Part shown: positions 7,981 through 43,401 of the stretch, in pieces
Layout of the letters: every line of letters begins with the position of its first letter
How positions within the stretch are numbered: position 1 is the stretch's first letter
NCBI GenBank assembly: GCA_008632985.1
Contig: QPGO01000161.1
Location: 124,001 to 167,401, forward strand
DNA length: 43,401 bases
Reading direction: 5' to 3'
DNA from: Psammoneis japonica
Lineage: Eukaryota
Translations under genes and position numbers: made by a program
Notes under the pieces: generated by a model
Seen by the model: only the letters and a program-made list of their open reading frames with translations
Told to the model about the DNA's origin: nothing
Database searches by the model: none

Positions 7981-7988
7981 TGTGTGTC

Positions 7989-20469: not shown

Positions 20470-20960
20470 CTTCCCCACACAAGACACAGCGTGGTTGCAT
20501 GTGCCAGCGATGCAACAACACACGGCCCAAGCGGGATAATGACTTTAGATGAATTCTGTAGATTTAACTATCACATTGCAATAAAATTTCACCATTGGAG
20601 TGACATCTGAAATGAGGTGCACCGTCCACTTCTTTGTATCCGCGATTTTAGCCCATGTAATAAACAGCATGATAAGTTCCAAAGTGCCCGCCTTCATGAA
20701 GCCGAACAACCTGACCGGAACTTGAAGAACCATCCTGTAGGTTACGTGATCGGAGCCGCCCAATCATATCCTGCTGGTCACGGGAATGGCAGCCATCAGG
20801 AACTCGAACAAACTTTCTCTGGTTGCGCTGAACGGCTTCATCGGCACCCTTTTTGGCGCTTTTTCCAAACTCACACGGGGCATGCGTCAGTAGAAATGGG
20901 CTGTGCTTCTGAAGCAAGGCAACATCAGCTTCGAGTATCTTGCCAAAGTTCGAACACAGC
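20470..20960 (-). repeat. Partial tandem duplicate of the BTB gene C-terminal region
   Basis: 20848-20947 repeats 21113-21210 (EADVALLQKHSPFLLTHAPCEFGKSAKK). Confidence 0.75.
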
Positions 20961-21035
20961 ACAAGATTGGGATAATAATGTTAGATGAGTTCAGGAGATT
21001 AAACTATCATATTGCCTAATTCGCGACTTTGGAGT

Positions 21036-22168
21036 TACCCCCAAAAATCAAAGGCTTCACTTCTTCGTCTCAGCCGTTTAGTCACTACTGGCCTTCCCCG
21101 AGCTTGAGCAACCTTTTTGGCGCTTTTTACAAACTCGCACAATGCTTCTGTCAGTAGAAATGGGTTCTGCTTCTGAAGCAAGGTAACATCAGCTTCAGGA
21201 ATCTTGCCAATGATCGACCAGTCGTCGCAGAGGGCCTTGATACACCTCTTCTGGAGATCCGTAACGAAGCTGTCATCATCTGGTTTGACAATGCTACGTT
21301 CAGCCTCGATTTAAAAAAAAGCTGCATCTCGATGCACAGCCGGTAAGTACTCGGCACGAGTCAGCTTCTGAAAAGCTTCTTGGGAGGCACCGCAGTTCAT
21401 CAAGAAAATGCCTAGGAGCTTGCTTACATGGAGACTAAACTTCTCTGTATCACTTGGACTCGTTTTAGTGCCTTCTACGAGATCGATCCAAAATTCTTCG
21501 TCCGACACATGCATCAAACGGGACTTGTCGTCAATGCGAAGGATCTTCTTACGGCACGTTGCTGCAGCGGCGTCTCTGATCTTTTCATCATTTAGAATCG
21601 TGGCATGTTCAAAATACGTCCCACAAGTGCTCGCATTAAAAAGGTCTTTCTTCCAAAAGTGTTTGGCATCCCATCGAAGCCGACGAATCTGAAAATACCC
21701 GCCAAGATAATGAAGCGGAGTCGCCGTTTCCGTTGTTATCAGGAGCTCCGAGTCCAGAGAGTACATGTAATCCAGCACATTCGGAAACGCCTTTGCAGCA
21801 ATCTCCTCCAACTCTATCTGACTCTTCCTAGTGTTGGACTCTGCAAATCGACCTCCATCCTTGAACAATCGATCAAAATACTCGCTCTTGCGTGGGCCGG
21901 CTGCAAGTTGCGCCTTGTGCACATGATACGTGTCGGTTTTTGTCGTGTTGTTTTTGGTCTGATACTTGATTTCAATCGTCCAGTCCGAGTAATTATCTCC
22001 TGGATCTTGTCGCCACAATATCTTTTTCTTGTCATTTCGAATCGCCGGAGGAGCCACGTCAGAATCGTACGCATCGTACGATTCGCCGAGTTTTGAGCGC
22101 TTCTTCGAATTTGCTGCCACCTCCTCTCCGTTTGCTGCTATTGTCTTGCGCTTTGCTGTCGTGGCCAT
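21036..22168 (-). CDS. BTB/POZ-domain protein
   Basis: SDWTIEI...TYHVHKAQLAAGPRKSEYFDRLF...AFPNVLDYMY. The TAA at 21311-21313 lies in a homopolymer and is in frame with the continuation IEAERSIVKPDDDSFVTDLQKRCI..., so it is probably TTA (Leu) miscalled. Confidence 0.85.
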
Positions 22169-24269: not shown

Positions 24270-27200
24270 ACGGCTTTGGAAAGCAGAACAAAGCTGGAGC
24301 ACCCAGGTTCTAGTCTCCAATTTCGAGACATTTTCAGGCTATGCTGTCGCACAGCAAACAACGGGAATTTCACACGGAATGCATTTGCGAACACAGCACA
24401 TGCAACCAACCATGATTGGACGACTTTTCTGCACGCAACATTGTGGATTGCGAAGATTGCGGATTTTCACTGCACGGCTTGTCAATTGATTTTCAACCAC
24501 TCACAAATGACAAGAGCCATGCATCCTTGTCAGCTCATTTTTGTTTCGTTTTCATGTTGCAGCCCTCGACCAGCAGAGAGTCAGTGGAGGAGCAGCCAGT
24601 GTGAGAATTTTTCACTGCTGCCGCGGCACCCTCTCTCCAAGTCTCTTCTAAATCTGCCCAGCAATCTCTTTTCTTCAACCCCATCCCACAGTGACCAACA
24701 AGCCCCTGCTGCTGGAGTTGTGGAAGACAAAGCTGCTCCTGCATGAAAAAGAGGCCACCCCACAAAAAGCTTTTTGTGCACGCACACAGAGCAGCTCAGC
24801 AAAGGCATGAAGAACCTCTCCCCTGTGTCTGCCAGCATGAACATTTTGTTGCTGTCACAGCATTGTTGTCATCATCTGACTGCTGAATGTGCCCTTTTTG
24901 GTTCTTGTCTAAATCAAGCTGAACTGTCACTCTTGCTCTGCAAAAACCCAGGAGACCCAACGTGGTCAGATTGTTCAAGTCATTTGGCCTCTTCTTGTTT
25001 GAGTTTTCATTGGTGGCTTGCTCCAACTTTGCCAACTTTTTTTGTGGCCTGCAGCAGATTGTTGCTCTTTGGCAGCTTCCGCCACTTTTTTGCTGCACTT
25101 TGAGGTTACCAGACAGGCACTTTGGGGCTGGTGCCCACCCCATGACAGACCACAAAACTTTGAGCCATTTCTCCACCTCTAAATCCAAAACATGCAGGAT
25201 GGTTGTTTGCAGTTTGATGTGCCTGCTGGAAGTTTTTCTTGGGAGGCACAATGAATGACATGCTTGGCCCTCAACATTTCATTTGTGGCCAGCGTGATGG
25301 GCGAGAGGGACAGGCTTCTTTTTTTCTTGTTGGGGGGCAGCAGGGTTCTTGACCATTGCATTTGCTCAGTGTGTGAGTGGAGGGTTGCAAGCTTGTCTCC
25401 AGCTCTGAAAAGGTGGAGTCAACGGCAAATGAGTTTGTGCTCCATTTGGCCAACTGTCTTGCTGCAGTCTTTGTGCTGGTTCACTCACATGCTCTGCTGC
25501 TTCATGTGCTGCTGTCTAACATGTGCTGCACCGAAGGTGCTGCATGGAAGGAGAGGTTGTGTGTGACATGGCAAAACATGGCCCAGCACCCAGCACTTTC
25601 CTTCAAGCCCCTGCTTGCCACAGTGTCTTTGCTGTGAGATCTTGCTGAGATGGGCATGATGATGGATTTTGGCAGCTCTGTGAAGAGCTCTAAGATTTTC
25701 ACTCTGGCTGCCCCAGCTGAGTTTGGGGTGCATTGCTTTTTTGTTTGGCTGGCTTTGCAGCCACTTTTTGTTTGAAAGCCAGCTCAGCCCAGCATGATTG
25801 GCAGCTCCAGAGCTGCTCAAATGGGGAGAGGTGCACACACGTGTGTTCATTCCTTGTTTTGGTGCTGCAAAAAGCAGCAATCTGATGCACATGGGTGCCC
25901 CTTGTTGGCTCACACTGGGTTGGGTTTTTGAGCAACTTGGAGAGAGCTTTCTTTCTCAAGGCTTGCAAAGGTGCCAAAGAATTTTTCTTCACACTTCTTC
26001 AAGCTTGGACCAAAGTTGCCCAAAGCCACAGATTCTCTTTTCCTTGCTCAGGCTTGGGCTCAGGAGGTGCTGGCCCGCTCCTCCAAAAATGGAGCTGATG
26101 TGCTCTCTCTCTTTGTCAGCCCCACCTCACATTGTGCCCAACTTGGAACCCAAGCTGCAGCTCAGATTCCACCAGAAATCATGCACTGTGACACAAAAGG
26201 TTTGTTTCATCACCTCAGCTGTTGCTTTCAGCAGCTTGGAGCTGCCACAAGGAAGGCGCTGCACAATGAACATGGTGCTCTCATCACCAGAGGCATTGTG
26301 ATGTAAAAAAAATGAAATCTGTTTCACCGCGCCTCACCACCACCCACACCAACACCGACCACAGCAGACCCATGTTCCCCAGCACCCACAAAGGGCGGCA
26401 GGGACAATTTGAACACTGTTGAACGTTGTCAGAAAGCAATGCCATCAACATTGTCCAAAGGCAATGCCGTCAATGCATCATCAGAAAGAGGCTGTTTGTT
26501 TTAAGTCAGAATGGCACCGACCGGATGCTTGTTGCACCACTTGGGAGACACCAAAGTGAACACTGCAGAAAACTAAAACTCGTGTCTGTCTCCAAAGACA
26601 ATTTGTTTGAAGAGAATGTGAGCGAAATTCCTGGCATGAAACCATCCAGGAAGTCCTCCAACACGGACCCCAACGATGAAAGGAAATGATGATCGTGGAA
26701 ACTTGCCATCATGTGCAGAATTGTGCAGGAATTGTGTGCTGAAGCTGCAGCATCGAAGTGCAAAAAGAGCAAACACTCGGACCTGGAAATGCTGGCCACT
26801 TGAAAGACTTGTGAAGACCCACTTTGAAGCGCTGTGAAGTGTTGATCATGACATTGAACTGCACTGCAAAGAAAACTTGGAGGAAGAATATTGGCAAGAA
26901 AAACAAAGGATGAAACTTGAAATGGTCTCGACTCAAAATTCTGGCCAAATGCACAGAATTGTGCATGGAATTTGCACTGAAATGACTGACTTGGAAATTG
27001 CTGAATCATGCAGAGGTTGATGCAGAAAACACACTGACACATGGAAAGAAAATGCAAAGAGCTGCAACACCATGGCGGTGCCGCTCCCCTGAACGCAGAC
27101 ACAACAGAGCATCCCCTCCAACACCTTTTGGTTTCTCTGTCATTGACGCAACTGCCTGACGTCCCAAAGTGCCTGAAGAGTTTGGCATGCCACCACACTC

Positions 27201-27700
27201 TCACACGGGACAATCCTGCGGGCGCTTGTGCAGAATTGCGAGGCATTGTGATGCAGATTTCACCACTCACAATTTGATCACAAGAGGTTTGATTCTTTTG
27301 CACTCTGTGCTTTTTTCTTCTCAGATTTTGGCTCTTCTTCACCCGCACGTCTTCTGCCCACTTGTTTGTGACAGCGCCCCCTCTGCTCCATTGTGATGTG
27401 GATTTCACCACTCACAATTTGATCACAAGAGGTTTGATTCTTTTGCACTCCTGCCATTCTTCTCTGGCACGTCTTCTTCCCACTTGTTTGTGTCCGGGGC
27501 GAGGTTCTTCTGATGAGGTCTCTTTTGCTTGCTGGCGTGTGTCTTTTTCTGAGATGGTTCCTTCATCAGGAGTTGCAGATTTGGCTTCACCTTGCTCTCT
27601 CTCTCTTCTTTTGTCCCATTCCACGGTTTCCTCTTCCCTTTTTCTTGTTTGTTTTGTTCCTTCTTTAGTGCGTTTGCGGCCGACCATGGTGCGAAAATTT
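24270..27700. other. TpA-depleted tract of degraded, unassigned (probably repeat-derived) sequence
   Basis: Only about 14 TA dinucleotides by hand count in 3.4 kb. Many short Cys/His-rich ORFs and no recognisable domain. Confidence 0.6.
27245..27492 (+). repeat. Two-copy tandem duplication, period about 144 bp
   Basis: attgtgatg(ca/tg)gatttcaccactcacaatttgatcacaagaggtttgattcttttgcactc occurs twice, followed by cacgtcttct..cccacttgtttgtg. Confidence 0.85.
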
Positions 27701-27775
27701 TAGCTTGCTGTCTGTGCGACGTTCGTCATTTCGCCTTGATGCTCGGTCGTCGATCGTGCATGACATTTTTTCAAG

Positions 27776-28622
27776 ATGACAATGTTGAAACACCGCCTCT
27801 TTGCATCCCTCTTTTTCTCATTTCTTGCCTCACCGGCTGCTGCCAATCCATTATTGTTTTCCTCCAATGTCATTCAACTAACCGCGAAAAACTGGCAAGC
27901 ACAAGTCGAAGAGTCCGAGCACGCGGTATTTGTCATCATATGTCGTTCCGGATGAGGGTACTGCCAGCTGCTTGCTCCCGAATGGGAAAAGTTAGCTGGC
28001 GCTGTCAAGGGAACTGTCAAAATTGCACACTGGGACACTGAACAAAACACTAGACGACCGTCGTTGTTGGGTGAAATCAAGGGAACACCAACAATTCGTC
28101 TCTATGTTCCGAAACGGAAACAAGCCAACGGTAGCTCAACGAAAAAGTTAGTGTTGGATTATCCGTACGAACGAAAAGCTGTCGATATGAAGCGATGGGT
28201 GGATGAACACATGCCTAACTTTGTCGAGCCAATCCGTGATGGTTTGGCGGTCTGGAAAATTTCAAAACAAGGCCAACAAATACGGGCTGCCACAAGTTTT
28301 ACTCTTTGCGTCCAAACCCAACAAAACGCAGCCATTGACCAAGTATCTATCGACCGAATTTCGACGACGTTTGTTACTGGGACAAGTGGATCCAACCAAA
28401 CCCAACAAGGAACTTATGGACAAGTATGGAATTGTTCAATTGCCAGCCTTGCTTGTCATTCCGCCTAATGATTCTCAAGAGACTACTATCATTCGATACG
28501 AGGGCGATGGATTTACAAGAAACAAGTTACAGTCGTTCTTGTCGAAACATGCGCTCAAAGAAAAGGTATTGCCGAAAAAGAAAGAAGAAAAGAAAAAGGT
28601 TGGGGCAGACGGAGAGCTATAA
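27776..28622 (+). CDS. Secreted/ER PDI- or thioredoxin-like selenoprotein (UGYC active site)
   Basis: Signal peptide, then VIQLTAKNWQAQV...ICRSG[TGA 27953-27955]GYCQLLAPEWEKLA, continuing in frame to IKGTPTIRLY. A small indel near 28250 leads into a second Trx-like domain ending ...ADGEL*. Confidence 0.85.
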
Positions 28623-29895: not shown

Positions 29896-30495
29896 GGTTT
29901 CTTCGTTTTGAGTTTTGAGAACTCGACCATCAACCAACCTGATTTTTTGAAGATGCGCTGCAGCTGGGTATGTGTATTGCCTGATCGCGGATCACGATCA
30001 AACATTTATTCTCGACTCGTGATTCGGGCGTTTGAAATTCGATCAGTCGTGATAATCTTACAGTATATCGTGTAATCCGCCACCCGAACGTCTGTTGTTT
30101 TATATTCTTTCATGTCCAACACCTAAGTAAATGTAACATTTATGTGTCACAGGGCAATATAACAATAAAGAATCACTTGACAAAAGACATCCGAAGAATT
30201 TTGATTTCGCAGAGCGACAACCGCAAACAAGAATCGCAAGAACAGAGTTGCACAAGCCCTCTCTACTTCTACTTCTACTCTGGAGAGCTGGGAGGAGAGA
30301 CCAAGAGCAACCACCAACGCCTGCGTCATTTGTGCTCCTGAACCACACGGTGAGCAGAAAAGGGTCATTGTTTGCGTGTTGCAACATCACAATCGTTTGT
30401 CGATTCTGCACTCACTCTTTGTTTTCTCGTCAAATTTCAAATTCCGTCTTGCAAGGGGAGCTTTTTCCAGAAGAAAGAAGAGAAAGTGTCGAGTC

Positions 30496-32170
30496 ATGAA
30501 GCGAAACATTTCATCGACCCTGGTCATCGTTGGTGCCATCATGTCAATTGTTGAAACCGCAGCTCACATGGCTCCGGTGGGGTGCTCCAGAACAACAAGA
30601 ATCGCTCTGCACCCAATCACCATCCATGCGCCGACAACCACACGCACAGTCTTGTTTGTGCGTGACGCACACTGGTGGACATTGGCGGCGAGTGGAAACA
30701 GATGGGAAGTGACATTGCAGTTGGTGATGCTGGCGGCCCTGGAAATGTGGTCATTTCCAGTGACGGGAAGGTGGTGGCTGCCTCGCTCAGGAAACACATT
30801 GGCGTGCTGTTTGAGTCAGACAAAAAGAAATGGAAAGAAATGGGATCCAACCTTGAACTTAAACACAAACGCCTGAAAAATCCCAGACTTGCCATCTCCA
30901 AAAAAGGTGCTCACCTGGCCATGGCAAGTCACGTCGCGCAAGTCTTTAGGAGGGATGGGTCGGTTTGGACGCAAACGGGGCAAAACACAACCCACATTGA
31001 CCCTGTCAAAAGCCTGGGCCGACCTTTTGGCCTTGCAGCTACATCTGATGATGGGCACACTCTCGTCATTTCCTCGGAAGGCCAAGACATTTATGACGAT
31101 GATGAGTGTGGACCTTCAAGATGTTTCGTCGGCCATGAAGTCAGATTGTTCAAGTGGGGTGGGTCCAACTGGAAAGAAACTCACAGATTTGGTGAAAAAG
31201 GTTGTCCAGAGCAAAAATCCTTTGGCAGTTATGTGTCCATTTCAGGAGATGGAAAGCGTGTTGCGGTTTCATCGCGCTTGGGCCTGGAGGAACATGGACA
31301 TGGTGCCGTTCGCATTTGCGGGGATCTCGGAGGCACGTGGGACCGGCTGGGAAAGGATCTTTTCGACAAAAGAAGGATCACAGACTCCAGCTTTGGGCAA
31401 AACACTGCTTTCTTGCGAGATGGAAACCGAGTCGTTGTTGGCGATGCTTTTGGTGAGGGGTGCACTCGCGTTTTGGAGTGGAGTGGGAAGGCATGGGTGC
31501 AGGTGGGAGAGGATGTCGCAGGATCCAAGGACGTGGTTCGTGGTCCACTGTTTGGGTGGCTGTGTCTAGCGACGGGAATTGCATTGCCGTTGGTTTCTCC
31601 AAATTCTTCCGGAGCGATCAACCGACTTGGTCTGTGTCTTTGAACATGTGTGAATGGGATGGAATGGTGTGGAAGCAGAGAGGCAGTGCGACAGCGGCGA
31701 GCGATGGGGATGAGATCATCTTCGACTTTCTGTGTCTAACGATGGAGATCGTGTTGCTGTTGTGCGAAACTCAACCCAACTTGGGGTTTGTGAATTCGCC
31801 AAAGAAAACCCACCAACCAAAGCCGCTCGGAAAGTGAAAATTGACGTGAAACCCTGCAAGATGAGAAAGAAAATTAAATGGCGTGAAGGTGACATTGACG
31901 CCATTGTGCAAGTGGGAACAGTGGGCGCAAAACATTTTGACGTGTCGAAAATGAAACAGAGCTAGCGTGAAGTTTGGCAACGCCAGTCCGGTGGGAGAGC
32001 GTGTCACAAACTTCAATTCAGATGAGTGCATGGATTTGGTTCTTAAGTTTCGGGTGCACGAAACCAATTTTCGTCCAGGTGCCAACGTGAAGGTTTGCCT
32101 TTTGGGAGAAACAACGAAAGCCAAGAAGTTCAAAGGGTGCCAAAGAGTGATTGTCAGGATTCGAAAATAG
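30496..32170 (+). pseudogene. Secreted beta-propeller (FG-GAP-like) repeat protein gene, frameshifted and TpA-depleted
   Basis: Repeats WKQMGSDI..VVISSDGKVVAA, SFGSYVSISGDGKRVAVS and WVQVGEDV. Positions expected to be Tyr read Cys (VRIC, GCTRV). Confidence 0.7.
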
Positions 32171-32324
32171 AAACAGCTGGCTTAAAAAAAAAGACCCAGC
32201 ATGGGTTCATCCTAAACTTTGTCTCTGCTGCTGCTCTCTGGCAGAGTGGAATTGATCTCTAGAGTGTGTGATGGTGTCTGGCACTTCTCACCATGATGTG
32301 CGTGTTGCATTTCCACAGCAGCGA

Positions 32325-35300
32325 CACTCTCCATCGTGAGTCGATGCGTCGACCGTTCTTCGCTCACGCGCTCGCACGCACCCGAAGGTCAGACTCTCGC
32401 GGAAGTGAGATGGACGATGCACCAGGGTCGCATGTGGGCGGATTGTTGCAGTGCCATTTTTTCGCTCACACCGAACGCATGGGAATTTGGAATCTAAAAG
32501 GTGAACATTGTCTCGCTCAGTCATGATTCCCTCCCGCCGGAACACACTTTCCCTCCCGATGTCAGACAGAAGCAACTCGGCGCTTCGACCAATGCGCTGC
32601 GTGTTGCAGCAGTGTGGGTTAATCCTTTCATTTTAACCTTGCCACAAGACCCCACGTGTGTCATGTCTGCACGATGAATGGTGTCTGGATTGACAAAACC
32701 AAACTCGACTTTCTCGATTTGCGAGCAAATCTCCCTCCGACGGACCCAAACTCTGATCCCGACGGATCGCTTTCGAGGAAGCTTGCTTTTTGTGTGAAAC
32801 ATTTGCCAAAGCTCATTTTCGCCCCAGCTCAATCAAGACCAAGCCAATTCAAATGCGAAGTCAAACAAACAATGACTCGTTGAGCACGAGAACTGATGGT
32901 GCCTCATTCCGAGTTTGAGACATGCTGCTCGATCCACAAGGGCATGGCGGTTCTGCCAAGGGGGCATCGATGGTCGAAGACTTGCTTCATGTCAAGCCAG
33001 GTGAGTTGATGCTGTTGTGCATTCTGCGCAACAAAGAAAACAAGAACATCCATGACTCGTGTCAAGAAATGTGCACCCAGAATGAGCACCTGTTTTCCAA
33101 CTTCACCATTTGCGGATTTCGCAGCAGTTGTGACAGACGGGTTCCAGTCCCAGGTGGGACTCCGTGTGACATTGGGCCCGTGGAATTCCACGTGCGAGCT
33201 CCACAGTGCAAGAATTTAATTGGTGGATGTGTTCATCTTCAACATCAAATGAACGGCCAAGTTTGTGGCACAATTGTGCGTCTTGCCACTTGACGTTTTT
33301 GCAAATGCGCCTGCCCTGTGTTGTTCTTAAGACATTGTAGAATCGCGCTGCAACAAAAAATGTCAAAAGTTGTTGGACGGATCGCTCAATGAGTGCACCG
33401 TAAAATGACACAAAATGTCAAAAAAATCACCTAGAAATCTACGTGCGCGACATGCAACGTGATTCAAAAAACTGTCGATGTCACAGTTCAGCAGTGCGAG
33501 GTCCCACCTGGACCTGGAACGCGTCGACAAAATGAAAGTGATGCCAACCACCTCCAGATTCCTGTTGAGGTTGTTTCCAATCTGGCAGAGAACACTGTCC
33601 CTCTTCCAGGAGCTGCCGGCAACCCGTCCATGCCAAACCTTGACACTGGCATCAAAGTGCAATTCTTCTTCTCAAACTGCAAGAAAGCTCCAAAGACCAA
33701 TGGTGGCGAGTCATTGATTTCTTCACGCATGCATTGCAACACCATTTTCAGCTGCGTCGCATCAACAAGAATGAATTGCAACCACTGCCAGACTTCCTCC
33801 CTCTCTTTGTTGGCTCCAGTGCCAAAGCTGTCATTCGCAACAACTGCGGGCTGCTGATGCAGTTGCTTTTGGAAGCTGGTCCCGACCCGCAACTGTTTCT
33901 TGCTGTTGTCAACAATTTTCAATGTGTGCTGGAATGAAGGGAAATGAAACAGTTGAGAAGGCAAGTTGCAGCACTGAAATCCAAGGAGGAGAAAAAGGCT
34001 GCTGCTTGCCCAGCACTCACTCCTGTGAATCCCAATGCACTGGCTTCTCGAGATGCAATGGCAACGAAAGCAACTCCTTCAATCTGAGGCGACACCGCAT
34101 CGGCACAAAAGGCAGATGCTTTCCCGACACCCACTCCTGTTGATGCCAATGCACCAGTCGCTCCGGAGGAGACAAGACAGCAAATGGCAAAAGGTTAAGA
34201 CATGGAGCTCTGCACTGGTGGGTCTGTTTCCAAATTGACACAGAACTTTGACAATGTGGCGCGAGACTTGCTGACTTCTCTGTGCAGCAAATGGATTTCC
34301 TTTCTGCTGATGGCACATTGGACATTGAGGGGCTGATCACTTCATTGAAAAAAGAAGGACCACACACATGGGCAGCGGTTTCTTCAGCAAGAGCACCAAG
34401 ATCATGCGTCGAAAACAAAGACAGGGTTGTGATGCTTCACATCTTCTCGCTTCTGCATGAGCGCAGTCAACGCTTCCTCAGGAATGTTGCACTCATCCTT
34501 GCATTTGCCGGCATGGCGTGTGGTGTTTCTTCCTCATCACAAGAGGTGATCAGCACACTGCGCCTTGTTGCCAATCGAAAATCTGCAATGACGTTCATGA
34601 AGGACAATGAAGATGCATGCCGTGAGAATGTGTCTGAGCTTTTTCGAAAGGAACCGGCTCTTTCTCTAGCCTGGGATAATTGCCAACGTGGACAGCAATT
34701 GTCTGAGCAACGCAACATGCAAAGCAACCAGTTTGCAATCGCAACGAATGGTGTTGCTGTCCGAGAATGCATTCAGATGTGGCCGAAAGGTGCTGTTCTG
34801 AAACACAAGGACGGAGCCGAGTTTAAAGTGTTAGAGCAGGTTGACAAGGATCCCTCTCAGCACTGGGCAAAATGTTGTGCACGCCAAATGGATTCTCAAG
34901 CAAGTGAGGTCTTGACAACCTTGCCAAGTTTTGAGTGCAAAGCAAGCAAGTGTCCTGAGCTGGCCGAAAGGCCGTCCATCACCCACCTGACACAAACGAT
35001 TCCGCCGCCTTTGGGATGTGCATGGACGGCATCTCAATGCAAGCGAATGATGGACATTGCTCATTTGATGCAAGTCCTTCACCAGTTTGGAACTCACAAT
35101 GTCCTTGGGGAGCATTCGCTGCAACAAACACTTGCCCCACTCTGCAGCGAGCTGTTCCAAATGAGGGAGAAGATCTACAAGGAAGGGCTCGCGTGGAAAG
35201 GTTCCATCAAGAATGATGTTTCGCAGTTTCAGTTCATGGAAATCATGCCCTGCAACAAACGATGGAGAGGGGCTCCAGCGATGTCATGTTTCGAGTGTTG

Positions 35301-38300
35301 AAGGCAGTTGGAAGTCTGGAAGCAGATTCACAAGGTGCAATTCACACTGCAGACAAGACGGCCAATTGAAGGCAGTTTGTGTGCGGTGATCAACTTGCCA
35401 TCAAGCATGTCCAGACCATGGTCAACAAGCTGATGAAACCAGCCATTGAAACCGATGACCCAGAGTCTGCTCAAGCTTTTCCAAAGGCCGTGGAATCTGT
35501 CCACCCACTCATTGGCGACCTCCACGTGAATGTTCATGTTGTCGCCGGCATTTATCTCCATTTCTGTGGTGGCATCTTCCAACCAATCCAGGCAGCGCTT
35601 GGGTGGACCCGCATCCAACGGAACACTGTTCCGAGACACAAGCTTTCAGCAAAAATGCTGGTGTTGATCCATGACCAACTGAGCCGTTTGCTCGTCCAGA
35701 AATGGACACTTGCATTGATGCCAGACAGCAGTGTGAGATTGGTGCAATGCTTGGAAGTTGAAGACATCAAAGAACTTGCTCAGCAACGGCAGCGACTCTA
35801 CATTGACTGCACCACACAAGGATCTGGCCAAGCAAAACTCACAGACCATTGTGATGACACTTGTTGCCAGCCTCGAATCATTCACAAAGCCAAAGGAACA
35901 GTCAAAGGATGCATGCGTTTGTGTTGCCATGCAGTTGTGTGAGGAAGGGAAAGTGCACAAAGAGCACAACCGGGCAACTCATCTCGGCAATCCCCACCTT
36001 TGCGAAATCCTCCGCAAGCAGCTGCTTGCATTCTTTGGAGGTCTCAAGAAACCAAGCTGTGTCGAGTTGTTTGCATCTGCCATGGAAGTCGCAACAGCGC
36101 TTCAAGAGCAATGCCTCAACAGCTTTGTCCGGATGACTGAGGACAAGGGATGCATGGCTTTTGACAACATGTGCGACTTCATCAATCTCTTGATGAAACA
36201 CATGACAAACATGAAAATGGATGTGCTCGTCCACAGCTCCCTGTGCCTTTCTTCAATGCAAGTGTGCCGCAAGTTGCAGAACAAAACAATCGGAGTCAGC
36301 AACGAAAAATTCGAAGACTCGGCCAAGATCAACACAAAATTGAATGGAGAAATTGTGTCACACCTTTTGGATGACTGTTGTCACATTCTCGATGAAAAGG
36401 GCCGCACTGAGCTTCAAGATGACTTTGTTTGGAAGCATGTCCCAGCAACCATCGCCAAGTTCATGCCAAAGGCTGCTGCAAGCAATCGCACTTCTTTGCC
36501 ACCAGAGTCCAAAGCCATCAGTTGCTTGTTCGGTGATCTTGCAAAGCAACAGCCAATCTCGCAAAAGCAAGTCGAGCAAGAGGAAAAAGATTGTGAGAAA
36601 GAGTCCGACGCTGACGATGACAACAAAGGCGGCACCGATGAAAACAACACCATTGAAAACGCCGACCCAAACAGCACATGCCAACGAATCGCAAAAATGG
36701 CCAAGTGCCCTCTTCATCAGGCCGTTCGAGGTGGAAAGGACATCCGTGAGATGGGAGCCAAGAAGCCAAAGAATTTGAAAGAGAACAGAAGTGAGAAAAT
36801 GCAAAAGCAGCAATGCCTTCTTAGACGGCTGGGGGAAGCGACAGAATGGAACAAAAAGAACATGCGATCAGCGGTTCAACTGCAAGACAACACATCTCCT
36901 TTGGTTTTGAAGCTGCTTGGGGATTGCACTGGTGACGAAGAGAGAGAGAAGCACTCATCGCGGCAACGCTGCAGTCGTTGCTTCCGGAAGGGTAAATGCC
37001 GTGACCATTTCAAGTGGAAGGAGTCATGCATTTGGCAAGCAGTGGTGGGCCATTTCTCATGGCGGTCAAAACCGGACAGGGCAAATCTCTTCTAGCTCCA
37101 GCTGCCTCCCTTCCAATGGGAGGCATGACCATTGTGTTTGAGCCTTTGTTCTCTGTTGGCGGAGATCAGACATCGTCAACACAGTTGCCCCCCCCAATCC
37201 TCGTGTTCGCTGTTGTCACCTTGACAGTCTGCCAAAGGCAACGGTTGAAGAACTGTCAGCCAACGCGATGGAGTCCAAATCACACATGCATCACCTGAAT
37301 CATTCGACAAGCATGACAAATGGAGTGATTTGATCACTTGCGTGATTGAGGACCGCTTGTTGAGCGCTGCTGTGGTGCTTGACAAAGCACACAAATTTGC
37401 TCTTGACCAACATTGCCACCCCATGCTTGCATTGATGGAATTCAAGAAGGTCATCTGAGGTCCCATGGATTGCCGCATCAACCTGTCATTGGAAGTGAAA
37501 CCTGACATGTCCGAGTGCACGAAAGCAGTGAAGAAGCACACAAAAAGTCAGTTGTCAGCACCAAAGTGAAAGGTGATTACACACAAGCACTCAGCTTCAA
37601 AAGCAGAAGCACTTGTTGATCATCTGCATGACATCTGCACTGAGACAAGTGATGAGGCTGTGTGCCTTGCCAGCAACGAGGGTCGAGTGTGCAAAGGACA
37701 TGTCACCCACGTGTTCTGTTTGGATGGCACGAAGACTCGGGTGTTGGTGAGCACTGCAGCAGGGGATTGCAGCCTCAATTGCAAGCAGTGTGGAGCGGTG
37801 GGCATGATGGGTTTCCCGTTGAGCATCAGCGACAAGGCTCAACAAGAAGGACATGCCAACAGTTGCGGCGTTGATGCAGAAGTGCTGCACGAAGCTTGGC
37901 ACTTCATTTGCATCCCTTCCTTTTAACTGTCTTTTCCCACAGATTGCAGAGACAAAAGTTGAGGAAAAGGCAAATGGTCAGAGGAAAGTGAGCATTGACG
38001 AAATCAGGAAGGAAAAGCACGTCAATTTCATGGAAGCATTGAAGCTCATGATGATCCCAGAAGGCTGCATTCACTGTGCTTGCAAGCAACAACTTGAGGC
38101 CAGTCTCATCAGAACAAATCGTGACTCACCCAAGCGCCAGAACAGGGAATTGCTTCCGCCACCTAGACCAAAGCCGTGCGAAGACTGTTGTTGGCATTGC
38201 CACCAAGAGGACATGCTTCTGGTGTCATCGCGGGCAGCCTTGAAGGCCAAGCTGCAGGTGCGGATGAATGTGGATGGACCCATTGCTTTCAAAGAGCTCC

Positions 38301-40039
38301 CCCAATTCTTTTTTGAGCACCGCAAGCAGCTGTGGCCTTTAAAATGCACGAAAAACGATGAGCCAGAGGCAAGAGAATCTTCCATGCGATTGACGTTGAA
38401 GTTGATTGTGGCGGAGGTTCTGCAGCCCTTCGTCAAGGACACCGCAAAGGGTCATGTTGCACTTCGATGGGCAACTGTTTTGAATGAAGCTGGGCAATCT
38501 ATTTTTGCCTGTGACAAAGATGCATTGTGGGAAGCTGTCCCCCAACAACAGACGCACAACTGATGGCTCCTCATGCCACTGCATCTTTCCAATGAATCGG
38601 ACGTGTTCATCACATTCTCTTGGCTTGATCGCACTAGCCACACATCAAACCATGACCTGTGAACTGTCACGCCAGGTCATTGAGCTGGCAGTCATCCACC
38701 AGCAGTTGCCGTAGAGGCCAAAAAGAGAAGGGAGGACACAAGAAGTGAGAACATCCATGACACAGGATTCAAGAGAGGCAACAAAATTGGAGACATCAAT
38801 GCAAAAAACAGAAATGTTCTCACTGGCAATTGACGCCAAGGAAGAGACACAACAGTGCCACTGAGCACTGAGAGGTGCGTCAAAGAATGCCACTGAATCC
38901 CCACCAAGCCCGCCAATCAGCCTGTGTTTTCGATCCACGCTGTGTCTTAAAGCAGGAGATCTTGCCAGAGGCGAAAACAAAAACTGCAATTGTTGAGTCA
39001 CAGAAGCAAATTATGAGCAAAATCACAACACCAACTTGCCAATTGACCTTTGCGCACATTCTTTTGTGTCTCCTGCATGCACGTGCTTGTCACTGTGATG
39101 GCATTTGTCTCATGCCATTGCTGGAGGCATTCACACTGTCATGAACTGATGAACTCCTGCACGAGGCACAAGCCCCATTGAGTGAGTTTGAATGCCAATG
39201 GTTGACAATGTCATCACATGAGCTTGCCTCCTTGACTCAGTGTCGCCAAATGAGTGTGACCAATGCACTCAAATCTGCCCAAGCGGTGAGAAATCAATGA
39301 AACCGTCCAAAAATCTCCAAAAATGTCACAAAACAGTGACGCCCAACCAAAAATGAGACCCCAGACTGTCTTTGCCTTGAATCGGAGAGCTGTGGACAAA
39401 CCATGCCTCATGCAGACACCAACAAACAACGCCAAGGCATTGCATGGACTGAGAGCCTGCGTGACAACGAGGAAGAGCCCAACCCGTGAGTGAGCACATT
39501 TCTGGCAAAAAATGCAAAGCCATTTGTTACGAACAACAGAAACAATGGTTGTGCCACAAGAAAGACAATGCCGTTGCAAGGCAACAACAAAAATGTGCGC
39601 AAGTTTCCATGTCATGACTCACAGGGCGCAACGGAGCTGAACATGCAACGACAATCAACGACACACATCAGCACCTGCCGAAAAAGTGACGATTTTGCAC
39701 TTGGTCAGTCTCGGGGATAAATCAATGAAATGTTTGCCAATTTTCTCCGTTCCAACACCATGGTGCGCTTCAACAGCGAGCATCTGAACAACCACTGAAC
39801 GGTGCAAGGCATGGCGGTTGATGCGCCGATGAAATCGATCATCATCAGAACGGCCATTTTCTGGTGTGTTTTGTGCAGAAAGCTCTGTAGAGCATTTCGC
39901 CAAATCCAGGGAGGCATGGCAACAAATTGTGAGCCACCATCCATCTTGCTTCCGCGAGAGTCTATGAGGACACCTTTGGGTGTGTGCGAGCCACGCGCGA
40001 AGAACGGTCGACGCACAGACTCACGATGGAGAGTGCATG
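32325..40039 (+). mobile_element. AcademH-like DNA transposon (putative transposase plus RecQ-like SF2 helicase) with terminal inverted repeats, degraded
   Basis: Inverted repeats at about 32325-32460 and 39915-40039. Transposase-like motifs SLAWDN, GDQL, IGDLH and LGWTRI. Helicase motifs VKTGQGKSL, TIVFEPL..VGGDQ, VLDKAH, VLVSTAAG and GFPLSISDKAQQEGHA. Confidence 0.65.
37020..38563 (+). pseudogene. RecQ-like helicase, fragmented
   Basis: Degenerate motifs I, Ia, II (DEAH>DKAH), V and VI appear in order across frames, followed by a Cys-rich region (CIHC..CEDCCWHC) like the RecQ Zn-binding domain. Confidence 0.7.
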
Positions 40040-40124
40040 CGCAGCAGTGATGATGGCTCGACGAGCGACTTGTGATTTGATTTGGATGTTTGAACAATTC
40101 AAAGCAAAACCTTTCATCGACCCT

Positions 40125-40215
40125 TGTGGATGATGGGTGCAGACCTTCAAGACATTTTGTGGGACATGAAGTCAGATTGTTCAAGTGGGCTGAGTCCAAA
40201 TGGAAAGAAACTTGT
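40125..40215 (+). repeat. Fragment copy of the beta-propeller gene (31098-31192)
   Basis: gaccttcaaga...catgaagtcagattgttcaagtggg...tccaa.tggaaagaaact is shared. Confidence 0.8.
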
Positions 40216-40587
40216 GAAGGGGTTGTGGCTGTTGCTGAAGGGTGAAGGGTCGTGGCCGTTTTGTCTTGGGTTGTGCCCAAAGTGCAAATTGAAAAGAAGG
40301 TTGAGGATGGACTGTCATTTGGTGGTTTTTTTTTTTGCAGCTTGTGATTTAAAAATTTTGTCGTGCTTTGCCCGCATCATTTCACGACACCTCTGAGCAC
40401 CCCCAAACACTCATGAGTGTTCTCAACCCCCATCAGGGCTGTTGGGCCCATGCATGAACTGCATTTTTCAACCTTCAAATGCCAGTCATCACATCATTTG
40501 GCATGGTTGTTGTGTTCAACTGGCCACTGGGGCTGGAGCCCATCAACACAAAATTCCGCCAAAGTCGTGCAGAAATGTGTGTGAACA

Positions 40588-40675
40588 ACATGCGGCACAA
40601 TCCAAAAAACTGTTGTCACAGAAGCTTTGCAGTGCGAGATCCCACCTGGAGCTGGAGCACATCCACCAAACAATG
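40588..40675 (+). repeat. Diverged direct copy of 33451-33535
   Basis: IQKTVVTEALQCEIPPGAG versus IQKTVDVTVQQCEVPPGPG. Confidence 0.7.
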
Positions 40676-41111
40676 ATCCATCCTTGCATGTGCAGAAGTC
40701 ATGCACAGCAGCACAATGTTAGACAGATGACAGCCATGCAGCAGCTGACTGTGATTTGCAAGACAAATTGCCATTCAACGCCAACGGCAATCATGGCATT
40801 TTTCAGATGCTGTCAGAAGATGACTTTGCAGCAGACACTCCACTCATCAATCAACTGTGCTGTGTTGAACATGGACTCATGCAAAAAAAGTTCCCAGGAT
40901 GAACTCCCAGTCATCTGACAACCAAGTGCATCAAACAATGGCAAAAAAACTGAGCTTGTTGCCGGCATGACATTTTGCTGTCGAACGGAGGTTGCTTGCT
41001 CAGATGGTGCACACATGCCCCTTTTTGCTCAAATGCCAAATGTTTTGTGCTTTGTCCAACATTGGTTGCATTTTTTTATGATGAGATCAGCGGCTGTCAA
41101 TTGAAACAAAC

Positions 41112-41387
41112 TGACAGGATTTGAACAGGATTTGGATGCACGCGAAGTGTCGCGCGCTGTTTAGTTTACCGCGCACAGTTTTGTGTGCTTTAGTTCCGCG
41201 CATTCACGCGCGATGTAGTTTGCTTTCGAGCCACAAGGCTCACAAGAATAATGACAGTAGCCCGATTGTACCGACTTGCACGTCTTTCGGCTCCTGCAAC
41301 GGTCTCTGAGCGGAGACTCATCTGCTGTTTAGACAGCAGCAAGGAGTTGTTGTTTGAATTCTTGCCATTTGCCTTCATTTTCTGTCA
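41112..41387 (+). repeat. 5' LTR of a CoDi-like Copia element
   Basis: TGACAG...CTGTCA terminal inverted repeat. It is homologous to the sequence following the PPT in the elements at 7.5-8.3 kb and lies upstream of gag. Confidence 0.75.
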
Positions 41388-43401
41388 GATTAACAGTCTT
41401 GCTCATTGTCAACCCATTGAGCAACCGCCATTGTCGTCGTTGATTTACCAACGATGCTGTTTCAATTCTGCGTGGACCTCCGTGTGTGTTCTACATACAT
41501 CGGCAAGTCTACGCGCATTCAATGCCAGGGCATCGGCAGGAAGTTAACGTCACCGTCAAGTCTCCTTGCCGCTGGACATCTGGATTGATCATGCTGCCTT
41601 TGATCGCTGAAGACTTGTGTTCAACGGTCACATCCAAGTCTGTCCTTGATCAACATCCCTTGATGTGCCTGTTCCTCGGTTAACGGTCAAGAACCCTGCA
41701 CATTCAAGGATCTTAGTCGCTGAAGACATGCACATGTATGTGCATGTCTTCACGGCCAAGAACCTTTATCCACTCTTCGGACTGCGGTTTTGCTGCCACT
41801 CTACAAGCACACCGAGTCCATTGCACCTGATCTGCCCCGGACCACTGGTGCTCTGCAGTTCTGCCAGGTCCACGAGGACGACTGTGAGAGCAAGCAGCCG
41901 TGATTACAGCCTACGTTGGGGCGAGGGTGCTTTCCCGCGTTTGTTCGTTCGTCCACAGCGCCCAATGCCTACGTCAACTGGCCAGCCTGATCGGGAAATC
42001 CAACCGACATAAAATGAGAACAGTTCGGGGGTCTTGTCCACCTCCAGTCAGCTTACCTGCAGGGGTTTGCAACCCGCTGCTCCGCTCGTAAGCAACCCAA
42101 AGCACCGCTGGCTGTGGGTTCGGACGTGCCGGCACAACTCTACGGACCGGATGGGAAGTTTAGCACTTGACAACGAACGGGATGACAAAGCCCGGCGACT
42201 TCTGATTTTAAGATAGTTCAAGATTTCAAGTCAAGTCCATTTCAAGTCAAGTCTGTTCTCACCCAAGTTTCGAGTCTACCTTCGCTTCCCAACCAGAATT
42301 GATTGTCCTGACACCACTTTTGTCTGCCATGGTTCTCACTCGTCAGCAACAAACCGATGGTTTCGAGCACGTTGTTGGAACCGTGCTTGCCCAAGGTGCT
42401 GGGAGTCCTCTTCGTTTGGCTTTGGCCCAAGATGGCACGGACTCGCATCAGGAACCATTCACGTTCATGCCGTCCCAAATCGACTCGCTTGAGTGCGACA
42501 ACGGCACTGATGTGATCCCTTTGCCCCGTGGTTGTGAGAACATGTTAGCAGCACTGGTCAGTCTGTACATTGTCAAAGCACACAAAGGTCTTGACGTTGC
42601 CAACGACTCCTCTTTGTTCGCGCATGACGAGTTCCTTGCCCACCGCCTCAGCCCCGACTGCATGTCTTCTGTGTCCATCGGCAGCTCACCCCTTGCACCT
42701 CCACATGTCACCAATCCGACCAAGGCACGCGACCCGGTGCGGGACTTCAAGCAAGGCATCAAGCGTGATCCCACCGCTTTCACAGCTCTCAAATCCGACA
42801 AGCAGTGGCACACTTGGCACACCTCACTTGTGGCACAAGCCCGCGCCCAAGACGTCGAGTGCATTCTAGACTCGTCGTACAAACCGACCAGCCCCGAAGA
42901 CAAACTGCTCTTTGCTGAACAGCAAAAGTGCATGTTCGCCGTCTTTGAACGCATCCTTCTCACCGACAAGGGCAAGGCTCTCATTCGCGAAAATGTGGGG
43001 TCTTCTGACGCACAGACCGTCTGCCGCTCCTTGTCTGAGCACGCGCTTGCCTCCACCCGCGCATCCATCGAGTCCTCCACCCTGCTCACGCACCTCACCA
43101 CCGCACGTCTTGGTGATGGCACTTGGAAAGGTCCGACCCACGGGTTCATCCTTCATTGGCAAGATCAGCTGCGCAAGTGCGAGGCACTCATCCCGGCCAG
43201 TGACCACTTCTCTGAAGGACAGAAGCGCGTCATGCTCGAGAATGCCGTGCTGTCAAGAACCAAGCTGATCAGCATCGTACGCAGAGTGGCAAGAGCCTCA
43301 CATGTGATCAACACTGTGGCTTGCTCCTCTCCGCGGCAGCTCAGTGCGACAGCACGTTTCAACCCAAGACGACACCTTGAGCTCCCCGACGCGCCACACA
43401 C
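41112..43401 (+). mobile_element. CoDi-like Ty1/Copia retrotransposon, 5' part (LTR, leader, gag)
   Basis: Gag peptide at about 42740-43250: DFKQGIKRDPTAF..AQARAQDV..LLTDKGKALIRE..TARLGDGTWKG..FILHWQDQLR..HFSEGQKRVMLENAV. Confidence 0.9.

What the first reader, a model, noticed from the sequence alone, without database searches (positions are those of the whole stretch)
33460..41100. Surviving TpA sites are mostly YTAR, implying a TAY target motif
Of about 27 residual TA sites I tallied here, about 13 are TTAA/CTAG/TTAG and I found no RTAY. Survivors in the other tracts are also often CTAA/TTAA. YTAR is the only context where neither strand presents TA followed by a pyrimidine, so the mutator appears to prefer TAC/TAT. 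Known: TadA's native target is UACG, and TadA-derived base editors favour TA contexts. Inference: this looks like an enzymatic sequence preference.
Basis: partly seen in the sequence, partly recalled or inferred. Interest (0 to 1): 0.8.

Follow-up and report, generated by a model that had tools for sequence, protein, structure and literature searches.

The report
Flank rule of the TA-erasing mutator
In the mutated repeat DNA of this diatom, the few TA steps that survive sit almost only where purines follow the A on both strands, which gives the unknown TA-to-TG/CA mutator a four-letter sequence fingerprint that can be used to find the enzyme.

Summary
The count is exact: 33460-41100 holds 27 TA, of which 13 are YTAR (TTAA 6, CTAG 4, TTAG 3), 14 YTAY/RTAR and 0 RTAY. 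Over all five TA-depleted tracts of the window, 54 of 94 survivors are YTAR and 4 RTAY. Normal DNA has 136 and 190 of 714 (p 1e-16).

Survivors alone cannot separate a TAY rule from its mirror, RTA. The products can.

The rule also reaches the second 3' base. Per-strand cumulative rates are TAYY 2.5, TAYR 1.8, TARY 1.15 and TARR 0.13. The hexamer YYTARR is nearly immune: 31 of 94 survivors against 32 of 714 normal TA.

ADAR and fungal ADAT mRNA editing prefer a purine at +1, the opposite. Only bacterial TadA's UACG loop resembles this rule.

The TA-erasing process itself was already noted by this scan on other DNA of the same genome, and a 2026 preprint describes a like process in Bigelowiella. 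The flank rule appeared in neither. I could not replicate it outside this window.

The parts
33460..41100 (.). Focal stretch inside the largest depleted tract. It holds 27 surviving TA: 13 YTAR, 14 mixed and 0 RTAY; 6 of them are YYTARR.
30279..41161 (.). TA-depleted tract 4: TA O/E 0.07, CG O/E 0.63. It holds 50 TA (29 YTAR, 21 mixed, 0 RTAY), of which 15 are YYTARR.
5794..9731 (.). TA-depleted tract 1: TA O/E 0.04, CG O/E 0.30. It holds 11 TA, 5 of them YYTARR. It contains a mutated copy (7988-8167) of normal DNA at 4279-4465.
15783..20365 (.). TA-depleted tract 2: TA O/E 0.05, CG O/E 0.23. It holds 15 TA, 5 of them YYTARR. It contains a mutated partial copy (16373-17059) of the BTB-gene region 20479-21428.
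24342..27851 (.). TA-depleted tract 3: TA O/E 0.05, CG O/E 0.35. It holds 12 TA, 5 of them YYTARR.
42217..43383 (+). Weaker depleted segment: TA O/E 0.10, CG O/E 0.85. It lies in a copia-like gag reading frame (42212-43399, open at the window end). At the 10 columns where homologues conserve Tyr, this copy has Cys 4, His 2, Tyr 1 and other residues 3.
20479..21428 (.). Normal (unmutated) paralogue used to give the changes a direction. Over the three normal/depleted pairs, 27 of 34 aligned TA of the normal copies read TG or CA in the depleted copies, and 1 is kept.

Best explanation
The depleted tracts are repeat or transposon DNA that a region-targeted process has rewritten, changing the A:T pair of TpA steps to G:C (TA to TG or CA). 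Within a targeted tract every TpA offers two targets, one A on each strand, and the two are hit independently.

The hit rate of an A is set by the two bases 3' of it on its own strand. Cumulative per-strand rates are TAYY 2.5, TAYR 1.8, TARY 1.15 and TARR 0.13, roughly 19:14:9:1. A TA therefore survives well only if both strands read TARR, which is the hexamer YYTARR. YTAR is the one-base shadow of this rule.

Shown:
- the context-dependent loss;
- its reach (+1 and +2, nothing at +3 to +6);
- the good fit of a multiplicative two-strand model;
- the direction (TAY to TGY, equivalently RTA to RCA);
- its independence from CpG decay.

Inferred: the agent is a polynucleotide adenine deaminase acting on DNA. 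It needs T 5' of the A, as TadA/ADAT enzymes have U33 before A34, and its pocket tolerates pyrimidines but not two purines on the 3' side. Inosine is then copied as G.

My odds: flank rule real and mutational 0.85-0.9; 3' direction 0.85; adenine deamination as the chemistry about 0.55.
For: Survivor classes were compared against three baselines. YTAR survival is 0.25-0.35, mixed 0.05-0.07 and RTAY 0.01-0.02.

The half-site model fits (chi2 10.3, df 12, p 0.59), with per-strand rates TAA 0.43, TAG 0.76, TAC 1.84 and TAT 2.30.

Purine share at +1 is 77% in survivors against 46% in normal DNA (p 2e-15). At +2 it is 72% against 48% (p 9e-10). Positions +3 to +6 show nothing. Because all the changes are transitions, the purine/pyrimidine class of the flanks is not altered by the mutator itself.

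For YYTARR, 31 are observed against 37.8, 61.6 or 64.2 expected, depending on the baseline. Every other class survives at 0.24 or less. Each of the four clear tracts shows the enrichment on its own: 5/11, 5/15, 5/12 and 15/50, against 4.5% in normal DNA.

Mass balance: TA loss of 792 plus CG loss of 659 gives 1451, against a TG/CA gain of 1461.

The analogous asymmetry for the five control dinucleotide pairs is at most 97, against 234 for TG/CA.

Polarised checks:
- 27 of 34 TA of the normal paralogues are TG or CA in the depleted copies.
- Conserved Tyr columns of the gag frame read Cys 4 and His 2. The one Tyr codon preceded by two pyrimidines became Cys, as the 3' rule predicts.

CpG decay shows only a weak context effect (survival 0.36-0.69), and it varies between tracts independently of TA loss.
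Against: The ancestral sequences are not known. All rates rest on baselines taken from other DNA.

The window-baseline direction test is only moderately strong (P 0.002-0.007). It is confounded by CpG decay, which feeds the same TG/CA words.

Direct alignments give only 9 sites for the 3' rule and 5 against among mixed-class sites, which is not significant. The test of mixed survivors against local strand bias showed nothing.

I found no independent replication. None of the 79 related metagenome loci shows window-type erasure. In the one TA-poor stretch, L002:754-3514, survivors are 18 YTAY, 4 YTAR, 3 RTAY and 0 RTAR, and 19 of the 25 are in-frame Tyr codons. That pattern reflects selection, not this rule.

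At least one surviving TA (26889-26890) reads CG in six other contigs of the run, so some survivors are newly made.

The sequence cannot tell deamination of A from a lesion on the paired T, nor a preference in damage from a preference in repair. No deaminase gene could be sought, because no genome is held.
Confidence: 0.6

Rival explanations
1. The duplex event is the same but the chemistry acts on the other strand. The agent modifies the T of the TpA step, for example by oxidising thymine to a form that mispairs with G, and it prefers purines 5' of that T (RR-T-A). The result is T to C.
For: The product analysis fixes only which base pair changes, namely the one next to the Y(3')/R(5') flank. 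It does not say which of the two bases is attacked. RTA to RCA is the same event as TAY to TGY.
Against: No call speaks against it. The Bigelowiella preprint proposes an A-deaminase (ADAT2 homologue) only as a hypothesis (section read). The need for a T before the A matches the U33-A34 geometry of TadA/ADAT substrates; this point is recalled knowledge.
Confidence: 0.15
2. The lesion is made without flank preference. What depends on the flank is repair, for example removal of hypoxanthine or mismatch correction, which restores TA better in a purine-rich 3' context.
For: Sequence data record only the net outcome. The multiplicative two-strand fit is equally expected under this reading.
Against: The contrast is large (about 19-fold) and is set by purine/pyrimidine class, not by duplex stability. 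The order T > C > G > A at +1 does not follow nearest-neighbour stability (recalled values). This argues only weakly for direct recognition by one protein.
Confidence: 0.12
3. The pattern is not a mutational preference at all. It comes from the baseline (host coding DNA avoids in-frame TAA/TAG), or the survivors are new TA made after the erasure, or the survivors are kept by selection.
For: Normal DNA of the window is mostly coding, and YYTARR is its rarest TA class (TA fraction of Y-R steps 0.099). One survivor reads CG in other copies. In L002, selection clearly shapes which TA remain.
Against: The enrichment persists with a flat expectation (31 observed against 61.6 expected, while all other TA survive at about 0.08). 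It also persists with a baseline of unmutated transposon DNA (p 1e-17).

New TA drawn from the TG/CA pool would be about 23% YTAR and 24% RTAY (class counts), not 57% and 4%.

The tracts hold no recognisable gene: of 166 stop-to-stop frames of 75 aa or more I scanned 136, and none had a Pfam hit at E below 0.004. The survivors comprise eight different hexamers.
Confidence: 0.05
4. The changes are A-to-I editing of transposon RNA, by ADAR or by ADAT-type mRNA editing as in fungi, fixed in DNA through reverse transcription.
For: Both enzyme types prefer U before the edited A (PMC9600606 passages; PMC10661471 Table 1).
Against: Both favour a purine at +1. ADAR's preferred context is 5'UAG. In fungal editing A/G is enriched and C/U depleted at +1, and replacing +1 G or A by C cuts or abolishes editing. 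Here TAG and TAA are the spared contexts.

Both strands are hit about equally. A partial copy of a host BTB gene is mutated too.
Confidence: 0.03
5. The changes are errors of a polymerase-eta-like repair polymerase at WA motifs during targeted repair synthesis.
For: A to G at TA is part of the WA hotspot of polymerase eta (recalled, not checked in a paper here).
Against: AA is not depleted in the tracts. The four AA/TT flank classes stay within about 10% of the scaled normal counts. The process is therefore strictly TpA.
Confidence: 0.03

Closest known systems
TpA hypermutation of integrated giant-virus and virophage DNA in Bigelowiella natans (Mettrop et al., bioRxiv 10.64898/2026.01.13.699255). 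I read the abstract, passages and sections 11 and 12; the supplements were closed.
   Same: Only TpA is hit, giving TpG or CpA depending on strand. The process is confined to foreign or repeat DNA, and it leaves TpA-poor, CpA+TpG-rich clusters. An A-deaminase is proposed.
   Different: The host is a different lineage (a chlorarachniophyte, not a diatom). The main text gives no flank rule: the words context, trinucleotide and tetranucleotide occur 0 times. Here the erasure is near complete (TA O/E 0.04-0.10, against 0.45 for their giant-virus region), and it sits on transposon or repeat DNA that also shows CpG decay.
Bacterial TadA acting on the tRNA-Arg(ACG) anticodon loop. PMC10661471 Table 1 lists the context as 5'ACG; the loop sequence UACG is recalled.
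   Same: T/U lies before the target A and a pyrimidine (C) after it. TAYR is the second most mutable class here.
   Different: TadA works on an RNA hairpin. Here the substrate is DNA, TAT is hit at least as much as TAC, and the +2 preference is for a pyrimidine rather than G. No enzyme was identified.
Fungal sexual-stage A-to-I mRNA editing by Tad2/Tad3 with Ame1 (PMC9600606 passages; PMC11087585 and PMC11156358 seen as search listing only)
   Same: There is a strong requirement for U/T at -1, and the enzyme family is the one proposed for DNA TpA mutation.
   Different: The +1 preference is the opposite. In fungi A/G is enriched and C/U depleted, so UAG and UAA are frequent targets. Here TAA and TAG are the spared contexts. 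The fungal process also acts on RNA, not DNA.
Repeat-induced point mutation (RIP) of Neurospora and other fungi (PMC7296669 abstract in listing; details recalled)
   Same: It is a regional, repeat-directed transition hypermutation with a dinucleotide preference that kills transposons and gene duplicates.
   Different: The chemistry and direction are opposite. RIP turns CpA into TpA and makes DNA TA-rich. Here TpA is turned into CpA or TpG.
Amphioxus ADAT2/3 acting on DNA (PMC10354150, passages)
   Same: It is a natural ADAT enzyme shown to deaminate both A and C in DNA.
   Different: Its reported contexts in E. coli are 5'GAA3' for A and 5'TCG3' for C, not TA followed by pyrimidines. CpG loss here shows no TCG preference beyond a weak effect.

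Membership tests
TpA-specific A:T>G:C hypermutation of foreign/repeat DNA (Bigelowiella type) | Changes fall on TpA and give TpG or CpA | tested here: met
   27 of 34 aligned TA of normal paralogues are TG or CA in the depleted copies. TA loss plus CG loss is 1451 against a TG/CA gain of 1461, and AA, AT and the other steps are unchanged. Conserved Tyr columns read Cys or His.
TpA-specific A:T>G:C hypermutation of foreign/repeat DNA (Bigelowiella type) | Confined to discrete regions of foreign or repeated DNA, with neighbouring genes untouched | tested here: met
   The HMM gives five tracts with sharp borders. Pfam-recognisable genes lie only in normal segments. Contigs of run X1 pile up on parts of the tracts. 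A copia-like gag lies in one tract.
TpA-specific A:T>G:C hypermutation of foreign/repeat DNA (Bigelowiella type) | Observed as ongoing de novo mutation at about 1000-fold the background rate | not testable with these tools
   Only one run, probably the source sample, holds the stretch. No population or mutation-accumulation data were available.
TadA/ADAT-type polynucleotide adenine deaminase as the agent | T/U immediately 5' of the target A | tested here: met
   Only TA is lost, not AA, CA or GA.
TadA/ADAT-type polynucleotide adenine deaminase as the agent | Pyrimidine (C) 3' of the target A, as in the UACG loop of tRNA-Arg | tested here: inconclusive
   TAC is hit strongly (rate 1.84), but TAT is hit at least as strongly (2.30), and +2 prefers a pyrimidine, not G. 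Eukaryotic ADAT2/3 substrates carry G, C or A at position 35 (recalled).
TadA/ADAT-type polynucleotide adenine deaminase as the agent | A deaminase-domain protein (HxE...PCxxC) present and acting on DNA | not testable with these tools
   No genome is held for this window. No such gene lies in the window.
ADAR editing | Preferred context 5'UAG (3' G favoured), on dsRNA | tested here: not met
   The TAG per-strand rate is 0.76, against 1.84-2.30 for TAC and TAT. CTAG is among the best survivors (0.28). The ADAR context is taken from PMC10661471 Table 1.
Fungal Tad2/Tad3-Ame1 mRNA editing | A/G preferred and C/U depleted at +1 | tested here: not met
   The preference here is the opposite. The fungal preference is taken from PMC9600606 passages.
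RIP (fungal repeat-induced point mutation) | C to T at CpA, raising TpA and lowering CpA/TpG | tested here: not met
   In the tracts TA O/E is 0.04-0.10 and TG/CA O/E is 1.4-1.9.
Polymerase-eta-type WA mutagenesis | A mutated after A as well as after T | tested here: not met
   AA/TT counts in the tracts equal the scaled normal counts. The motif itself is recalled.

The most novel reading that the evidence does not exclude
It is directed at repeats. Transposons can escape it only by losing their TA or by placing them in YYTARR. Its specificity differs from every characterised adenine deaminase (ADAR, ADAT2/3, fungal editing complex), so it would be a new enzyme specificity and a possible source of sequence-selective A-to-G editors.
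Probability: 0.35. Interest if true: 0.85.

Novelty: new member of a known kind. Interest (0 to 1): 0.66.

Why it matters
A TpA-erasing mutation process has so far been described at dinucleotide level only. The sources are one 2026 preprint on another alga and earlier notes of this scan on this genome.

A quantitative four-base rule turns that pattern into a testable enzyme fingerprint:
- It argues against ADAR-like and fungal ADAT-like specificity.
- It gives a simple assay for candidate proteins: TAYY against TARR oligonucleotides.
- It makes a sharp prediction for the 231 de novo TpA mutations already recorded in Bigelowiella.
- It says which TA sites a transposon can keep.
- It gives annotators a way to recognise the process even in lightly mutated DNA, where the first sites to go should be RRTAYY.

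Tried and rejected
- **Pfam scan of tract frames:** I scanned 136 of the 166 stop-to-stop frames of 75 aa or more in the tracts. None gave a usable hit, so no Tyr-codon test was possible there. The 452-aa frame 35737-37092 has no homologue. Such long frames are expected by chance once TAA and TAG are erased.
- **Mixed survivors against local TG/CA strand bias:** no signal at four window sizes (p 0.27-0.86). Local bias is too weak to use.
- **Direct paralogue alignments:** only 14 informative mixed-class sites, 9 for the 3' rule and 5 against, not significant.
- **Sequencing runs:** one holder only, kept as contigs. Of 385 places with differences, 327 are transitions, but only 40 are listed, too few for a context count.
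- **Replication in 79 related metagenome loci:** none shows window-type erasure (TA O/E 0.27-1.13). Three short TA-poor stretches were flagged. The main one, L002:754-3514, is shaped by selection on Tyr codons and does not show the rule (3-class p 0.21; 2 of 25 YYTARR).
- **Rfam:** no family in the window.
- **Same enzyme for CpG loss:** considered and dropped. The CG context effect is weak, and CG loss varies between tracts independently of TA loss.
- **Literature:** searches for a flank rule or a diatom description found only the Bigelowiella preprint.
- **One misleading hit:** 'YAC' in a base-editing review turned out to mean yeast artificial chromosome mice.

Full report
**What the window is**

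The 43.4-kb window alternates between normal DNA and tracts in which TA is almost absent. Normal DNA has TA O/E 0.47-0.61, CG about 1 and TG/CA about 1.2. A two-state HMM on the chance that T is followed by A gives five depleted tracts:
- 5794-9731
- 15783-20365
- 24342-27851
- 30279-41161
- 42217-43383

Together they span 24,081 bp and keep 94 TA. Their TA O/E is 0.04-0.10, CG O/E 0.23-0.85 and TG/CA O/E 1.4-1.9. The normal remainder is 19,277 bp with 714 TA.

Pfam-recognisable genes lie only in normal segments: an o-succinylbenzoate synthase-like gene, an FkbM methyltransferase, Fic and BTB. Of 166 stop-to-stop frames of 75 aa or more in the tracts I scanned 136, and none gave a hit at E below 0.004.

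The best named relatives of the host gene at 2-1813 are from the diatoms Odontella aurita (51% identity) and Pseudo-nitzschia australis (45%). This supports the earlier scan notes that the genome is a diatom's.

**That the tracts are mutated DNA, not foreign composition**

Three normal/depleted paralogue pairs inside the window can be aligned. Of 34 aligned TA in the normal copies, 27 read TG (15) or CA (12) in the depleted copy, and 1 is kept.

Scaled to length, the tracts lack 792 TA and 659 CG and hold 1461 extra TG/CA. No other dinucleotide changes much.

The frame 42212-43399 belongs to a family with 64 homologues and a copia-gag-like consensus. At the 10 columns where homologues conserve Tyr, the window copy has Cys 4, His 2, Tyr 1 and other residues 3. 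Tyr makes up 0.5% of its residues against 3.6% in the homologues, and Cys 2.3% against 0.6%.

**Check of the observation**

In 33460-41100 there are exactly 27 TA: TTAA 6, CTAG 4, TTAG 3, TTAT 3, ATAA 2, CTAC 2, TTAC 2, CTAT 2, GTAG 2 and GTAA 1. That is 13 YTAR, 9 YTAY, 5 RTAR and 0 RTAY.

Normal DNA of the window has 19.0% YTAR, 54.3% mixed and 26.6% RTAY. On that baseline P(0 RTAY of 27) = 2.4e-4 and P(13 or more YTAR) = 5.8e-4.

Pooled over all tracts the survivors are 54 YTAR, 36 mixed and 4 RTAY, against 136, 388 and 190 in normal DNA (chi2 73.4, p 1.1e-16).

| Word (with complement) | Survival |
|---|---|
| TTAA | 0.47 |
| CTAG | 0.28 |
| CTAA/TTAG | 0.26 |
| six mixed or GTAC words | 0.02-0.09 |
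| ATAC/GTAT | 0 of 103 scaled |

Uniform depletion of the 16 NTAN words is rejected (chi2 119.7, df 15, p 2e-18). Three of the four RTAY survivors lie in the weak terminal segment 42217-43383. Without it the counts are 52, 35 and 1 of 88.

**A two-strand model**

Every TA has an A on each strand. I let survival be the product of two factors, each set by the base 3' of the A on its own strand. This model fits the 16 counts (chi2 10.3, df 12, p 0.59). The cumulative per-strand rates are TAA 0.43, TAG 0.76, TAC 1.84 and TAT 2.30. The order follows purine/pyrimidine class. It does not follow duplex stability, where A-C steps are among the most stable and A-T steps among the least (recalled nearest-neighbour values).

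**The rule reaches the second base**

Because every change is a transition, the purine/pyrimidine class of a flank cannot be altered by the mutator. Flank classes are therefore safe to compare.

| Position 3' of the A | Purine share, survivors | Purine share, normal | p |
|---|---|---|---|
| +1 | 77% | 46% | 2e-15 |
| +2 | 72% | 48% | 9e-10 |
| +3 to +6 | no difference | | 0.39-0.82 |

Adding +2 improves the fit (likelihood ratio 41.3, df 2, p 1e-9).

I then used a baseline that takes the number of Y-R steps in each flank class from the tracts themselves, which transitions cannot change, and only the TA share from normal DNA. With it the per-strand rates are TARR 0.13 +/- 0.08, TARY 1.15, TAYR 1.84 and TAYY 2.51. 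YYTARR survives at 0.82 (31 observed, 37.8 expected), and all nine other classes survive at 0.24 or less.

In raw counts, YYTARR makes up 31 of 94 survivors against 32 of 714 normal TA. In the focal stretch it makes up 6 of 27. A further 44 survivors have RR on one side, and only 19 have it on neither. In normal DNA these counts are 267 and 415 of 714. Each clear tract shows the enrichment alone: 5/11, 5/15, 5/12 and 15/50.

**Baseline caveats**

Normal DNA here is mostly coding and avoids in-frame TAA and TAG, which could inflate YTAR survival. Two checks address this:
- With a flat TA share the expectation for YYTARR rises to 61.6. Survival is then 0.50, against about 0.08 for all other TA.
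- With 58 unmutated loci of the gag-related transposon family from metagenomes (259,942 bp, 14,100 TA), survival is 0.25 for YTAR, 0.053 for mixed, 0.010 for RTAY and 0.48 for YYTARR. The YYTARR share is 31/94 against 4.9% expected (p 1e-17).

**Which side of the TA does the mutator read?**

Survivors cannot tell. A preference for pyrimidines 3' of the mutated A predicts the same survivors as a preference for purines two and three bases 5' of it. The products differ. Under the 3' rule YTAY gives YTGY and RTAR gives RCAR. Under the mirror rule they give YCAY and RTGR.

Results by baseline:
- **Window baseline.** The excess is 516-529 for YTGY+RCAR and 293-295 for RTGR+YCAY. The bootstrap difference is 223 +/- 81 with P(<=0) 0.0018, and the sign is the same in four of five tracts.
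- **Control dinucleotide pairs.** The same asymmetry for the five control pairs is at most 97.
- **CpG decay.** It feeds the same words, but its context effect is weak (survival 0.36-0.69). By my arithmetic it could move at most about 76 sites.
- **Hexamer level.** The slope of observed on predicted TG-minus-CA excess is 0.65-0.67 (CI 0.13-1.19).
- **Independent baseline.** With 20 related loci that have lost neither TA nor CG (72,886 bp, made strand-symmetric), the excess is 664 against 189. The difference is 472 +/- 64 with 0 of 2000 bootstraps at or below 0, and the slope is 0.88 (CI 0.57-1.19).

A slope of +1 is the 3' rule and -1 the mirror rule.

Small polarised data agree weakly. There are 9 sites for and 5 against in the paralogue alignments. 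The one conserved Tyr codon preceded by two pyrimidines became Cys. The test against local strand bias gave nothing.

**What this means**

The pair that changes is the A:T pair whose A is followed by pyrimidines. Seen from the other strand, it is the T preceded by purines.

The most economical mechanism is an enzyme that takes the A out of the helix, or meets it single-stranded. It would contact the T before the A and two bases after it, and convert A to inosine, which is copied as G. The sequence cannot exclude attack on the paired T or a flank-dependent repair step.

CpG loss looks like a separate process. It has almost no flank rule, and it ranges from CG O/E 0.23 to 0.85 among tracts with the same TA loss.

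**Comparison with known systems**

The only description of TpA-restricted A:T-to-G:C hypermutation that my searches found is the Bigelowiella natans preprint. There, 230 of 231 new mutations in two integrated viral regions were A to G or T to C, all on TpA. An ADAT2 homologue is proposed as the agent. Searches for a diatom description found none.

Against characterised adenine deaminases the flank rule is distinctive:
- ADAR's context is 5'UAG (PMC10661471 Table 1).
- Fungal Tad2/Tad3 editing has U at -1, but A/G is enriched and C/U depleted at +1. Replacing +1 G or A by C cuts or abolishes editing (PMC9600606).
- Amphioxus ADAT2 on DNA prefers GAA (PMC10354150).

Only bacterial TadA's natural loop, with C after the A, resembles the rule. 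Even so, TAT is hit at least as much as TAC. RIP runs in the opposite direction.

**Outside this genome**

The gag family gave 79 metagenome loci. None has window-type erasure (TA O/E 0.27-1.13), although many have lost CpG. The one long TA-poor stretch, L002:754-3514 (TA O/E 0.14), keeps 25 TA. Of these, 19 are in-frame Tyr codons of two long open frames, while the 753 bp before the frames hold 35 TA. That is a pattern of selection or codon choice. It does not replicate the flank rule. The rule therefore rests on this window alone: four independent tracts in one genome.

**Verdict**

The underlying TA-erasing process was already noted repeatedly by this scan in the same genome and has one published relative. 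The new result is a quantitative four-base specificity that can be tested directly.

Noticed in passing
L002:1-3516 (metagenome contig related to the gag family): An apparently intact copia-like element. Its coding part (754-3514) has TA O/E 0.14 and keeps 25 TA, 19 of them in-frame Tyr codons. Its 753-bp non-coding start holds 35 TA. This could be a transposon lineage that has purged every dispensable TA under a TpA mutator, or plain codon bias.
   Followed up: partly
window 42212-43399 (+), with 41162-43401: A copia-like gag frame with 64 homologues and no Pfam family. Contigs of run X1 pile up here and at 33058-33704 to summed depths of 7e4-2e5, so these are very high-copy repeats. This copy has lost 9 of 10 conserved Tyr, 6 of them to Cys or His.
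   Followed up: partly
window 16373-17059 versus 20479-21428: A partial duplicate of the BTB-domain gene region lies inside a depleted tract and is mutated (73-81% identity). The gene copy in normal DNA is intact. So the process hits duplicated host sequence, not only transposons.
   Followed up: partly
window 26889-26890: This surviving TA reads CG in six other contigs of the run. Some residual TA are therefore new, made from CpG by two transitions, rather than survivors.
   Followed up: no
window tracts 30279-41161 and 42217-43383 versus the other three: TA loss is the same, but CpG loss differs widely (CG O/E 0.63 and 0.85 against 0.23-0.35). TA erasure seems faster than, or independent of, CpG decay.
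   Followed up: partly
window 17783-19282, 24842-25841, 27342-27841, 31279-32278: Blocks of 0.5-1.5 kb with TG clearly above CA (bias 0.13-0.38), low A and high T on the + strand. This hints at local strand-biased mutation.
   Followed up: partly
window 12454-13209: Five to six tandem copies of a 126-bp unit (up to 97% identical) lie inside the 1068-aa frame 12086-15292 (-), which has no Pfam family.
   Followed up: no
window normal segments: In normal DNA, YYTARR is the rarest TA class: TA makes up 9.9% of Y-R steps in that flank class, against 12-23% in the other classes. This is the reverse of what the mutator leaves, so the genes show no trace of it.
   Followed up: no
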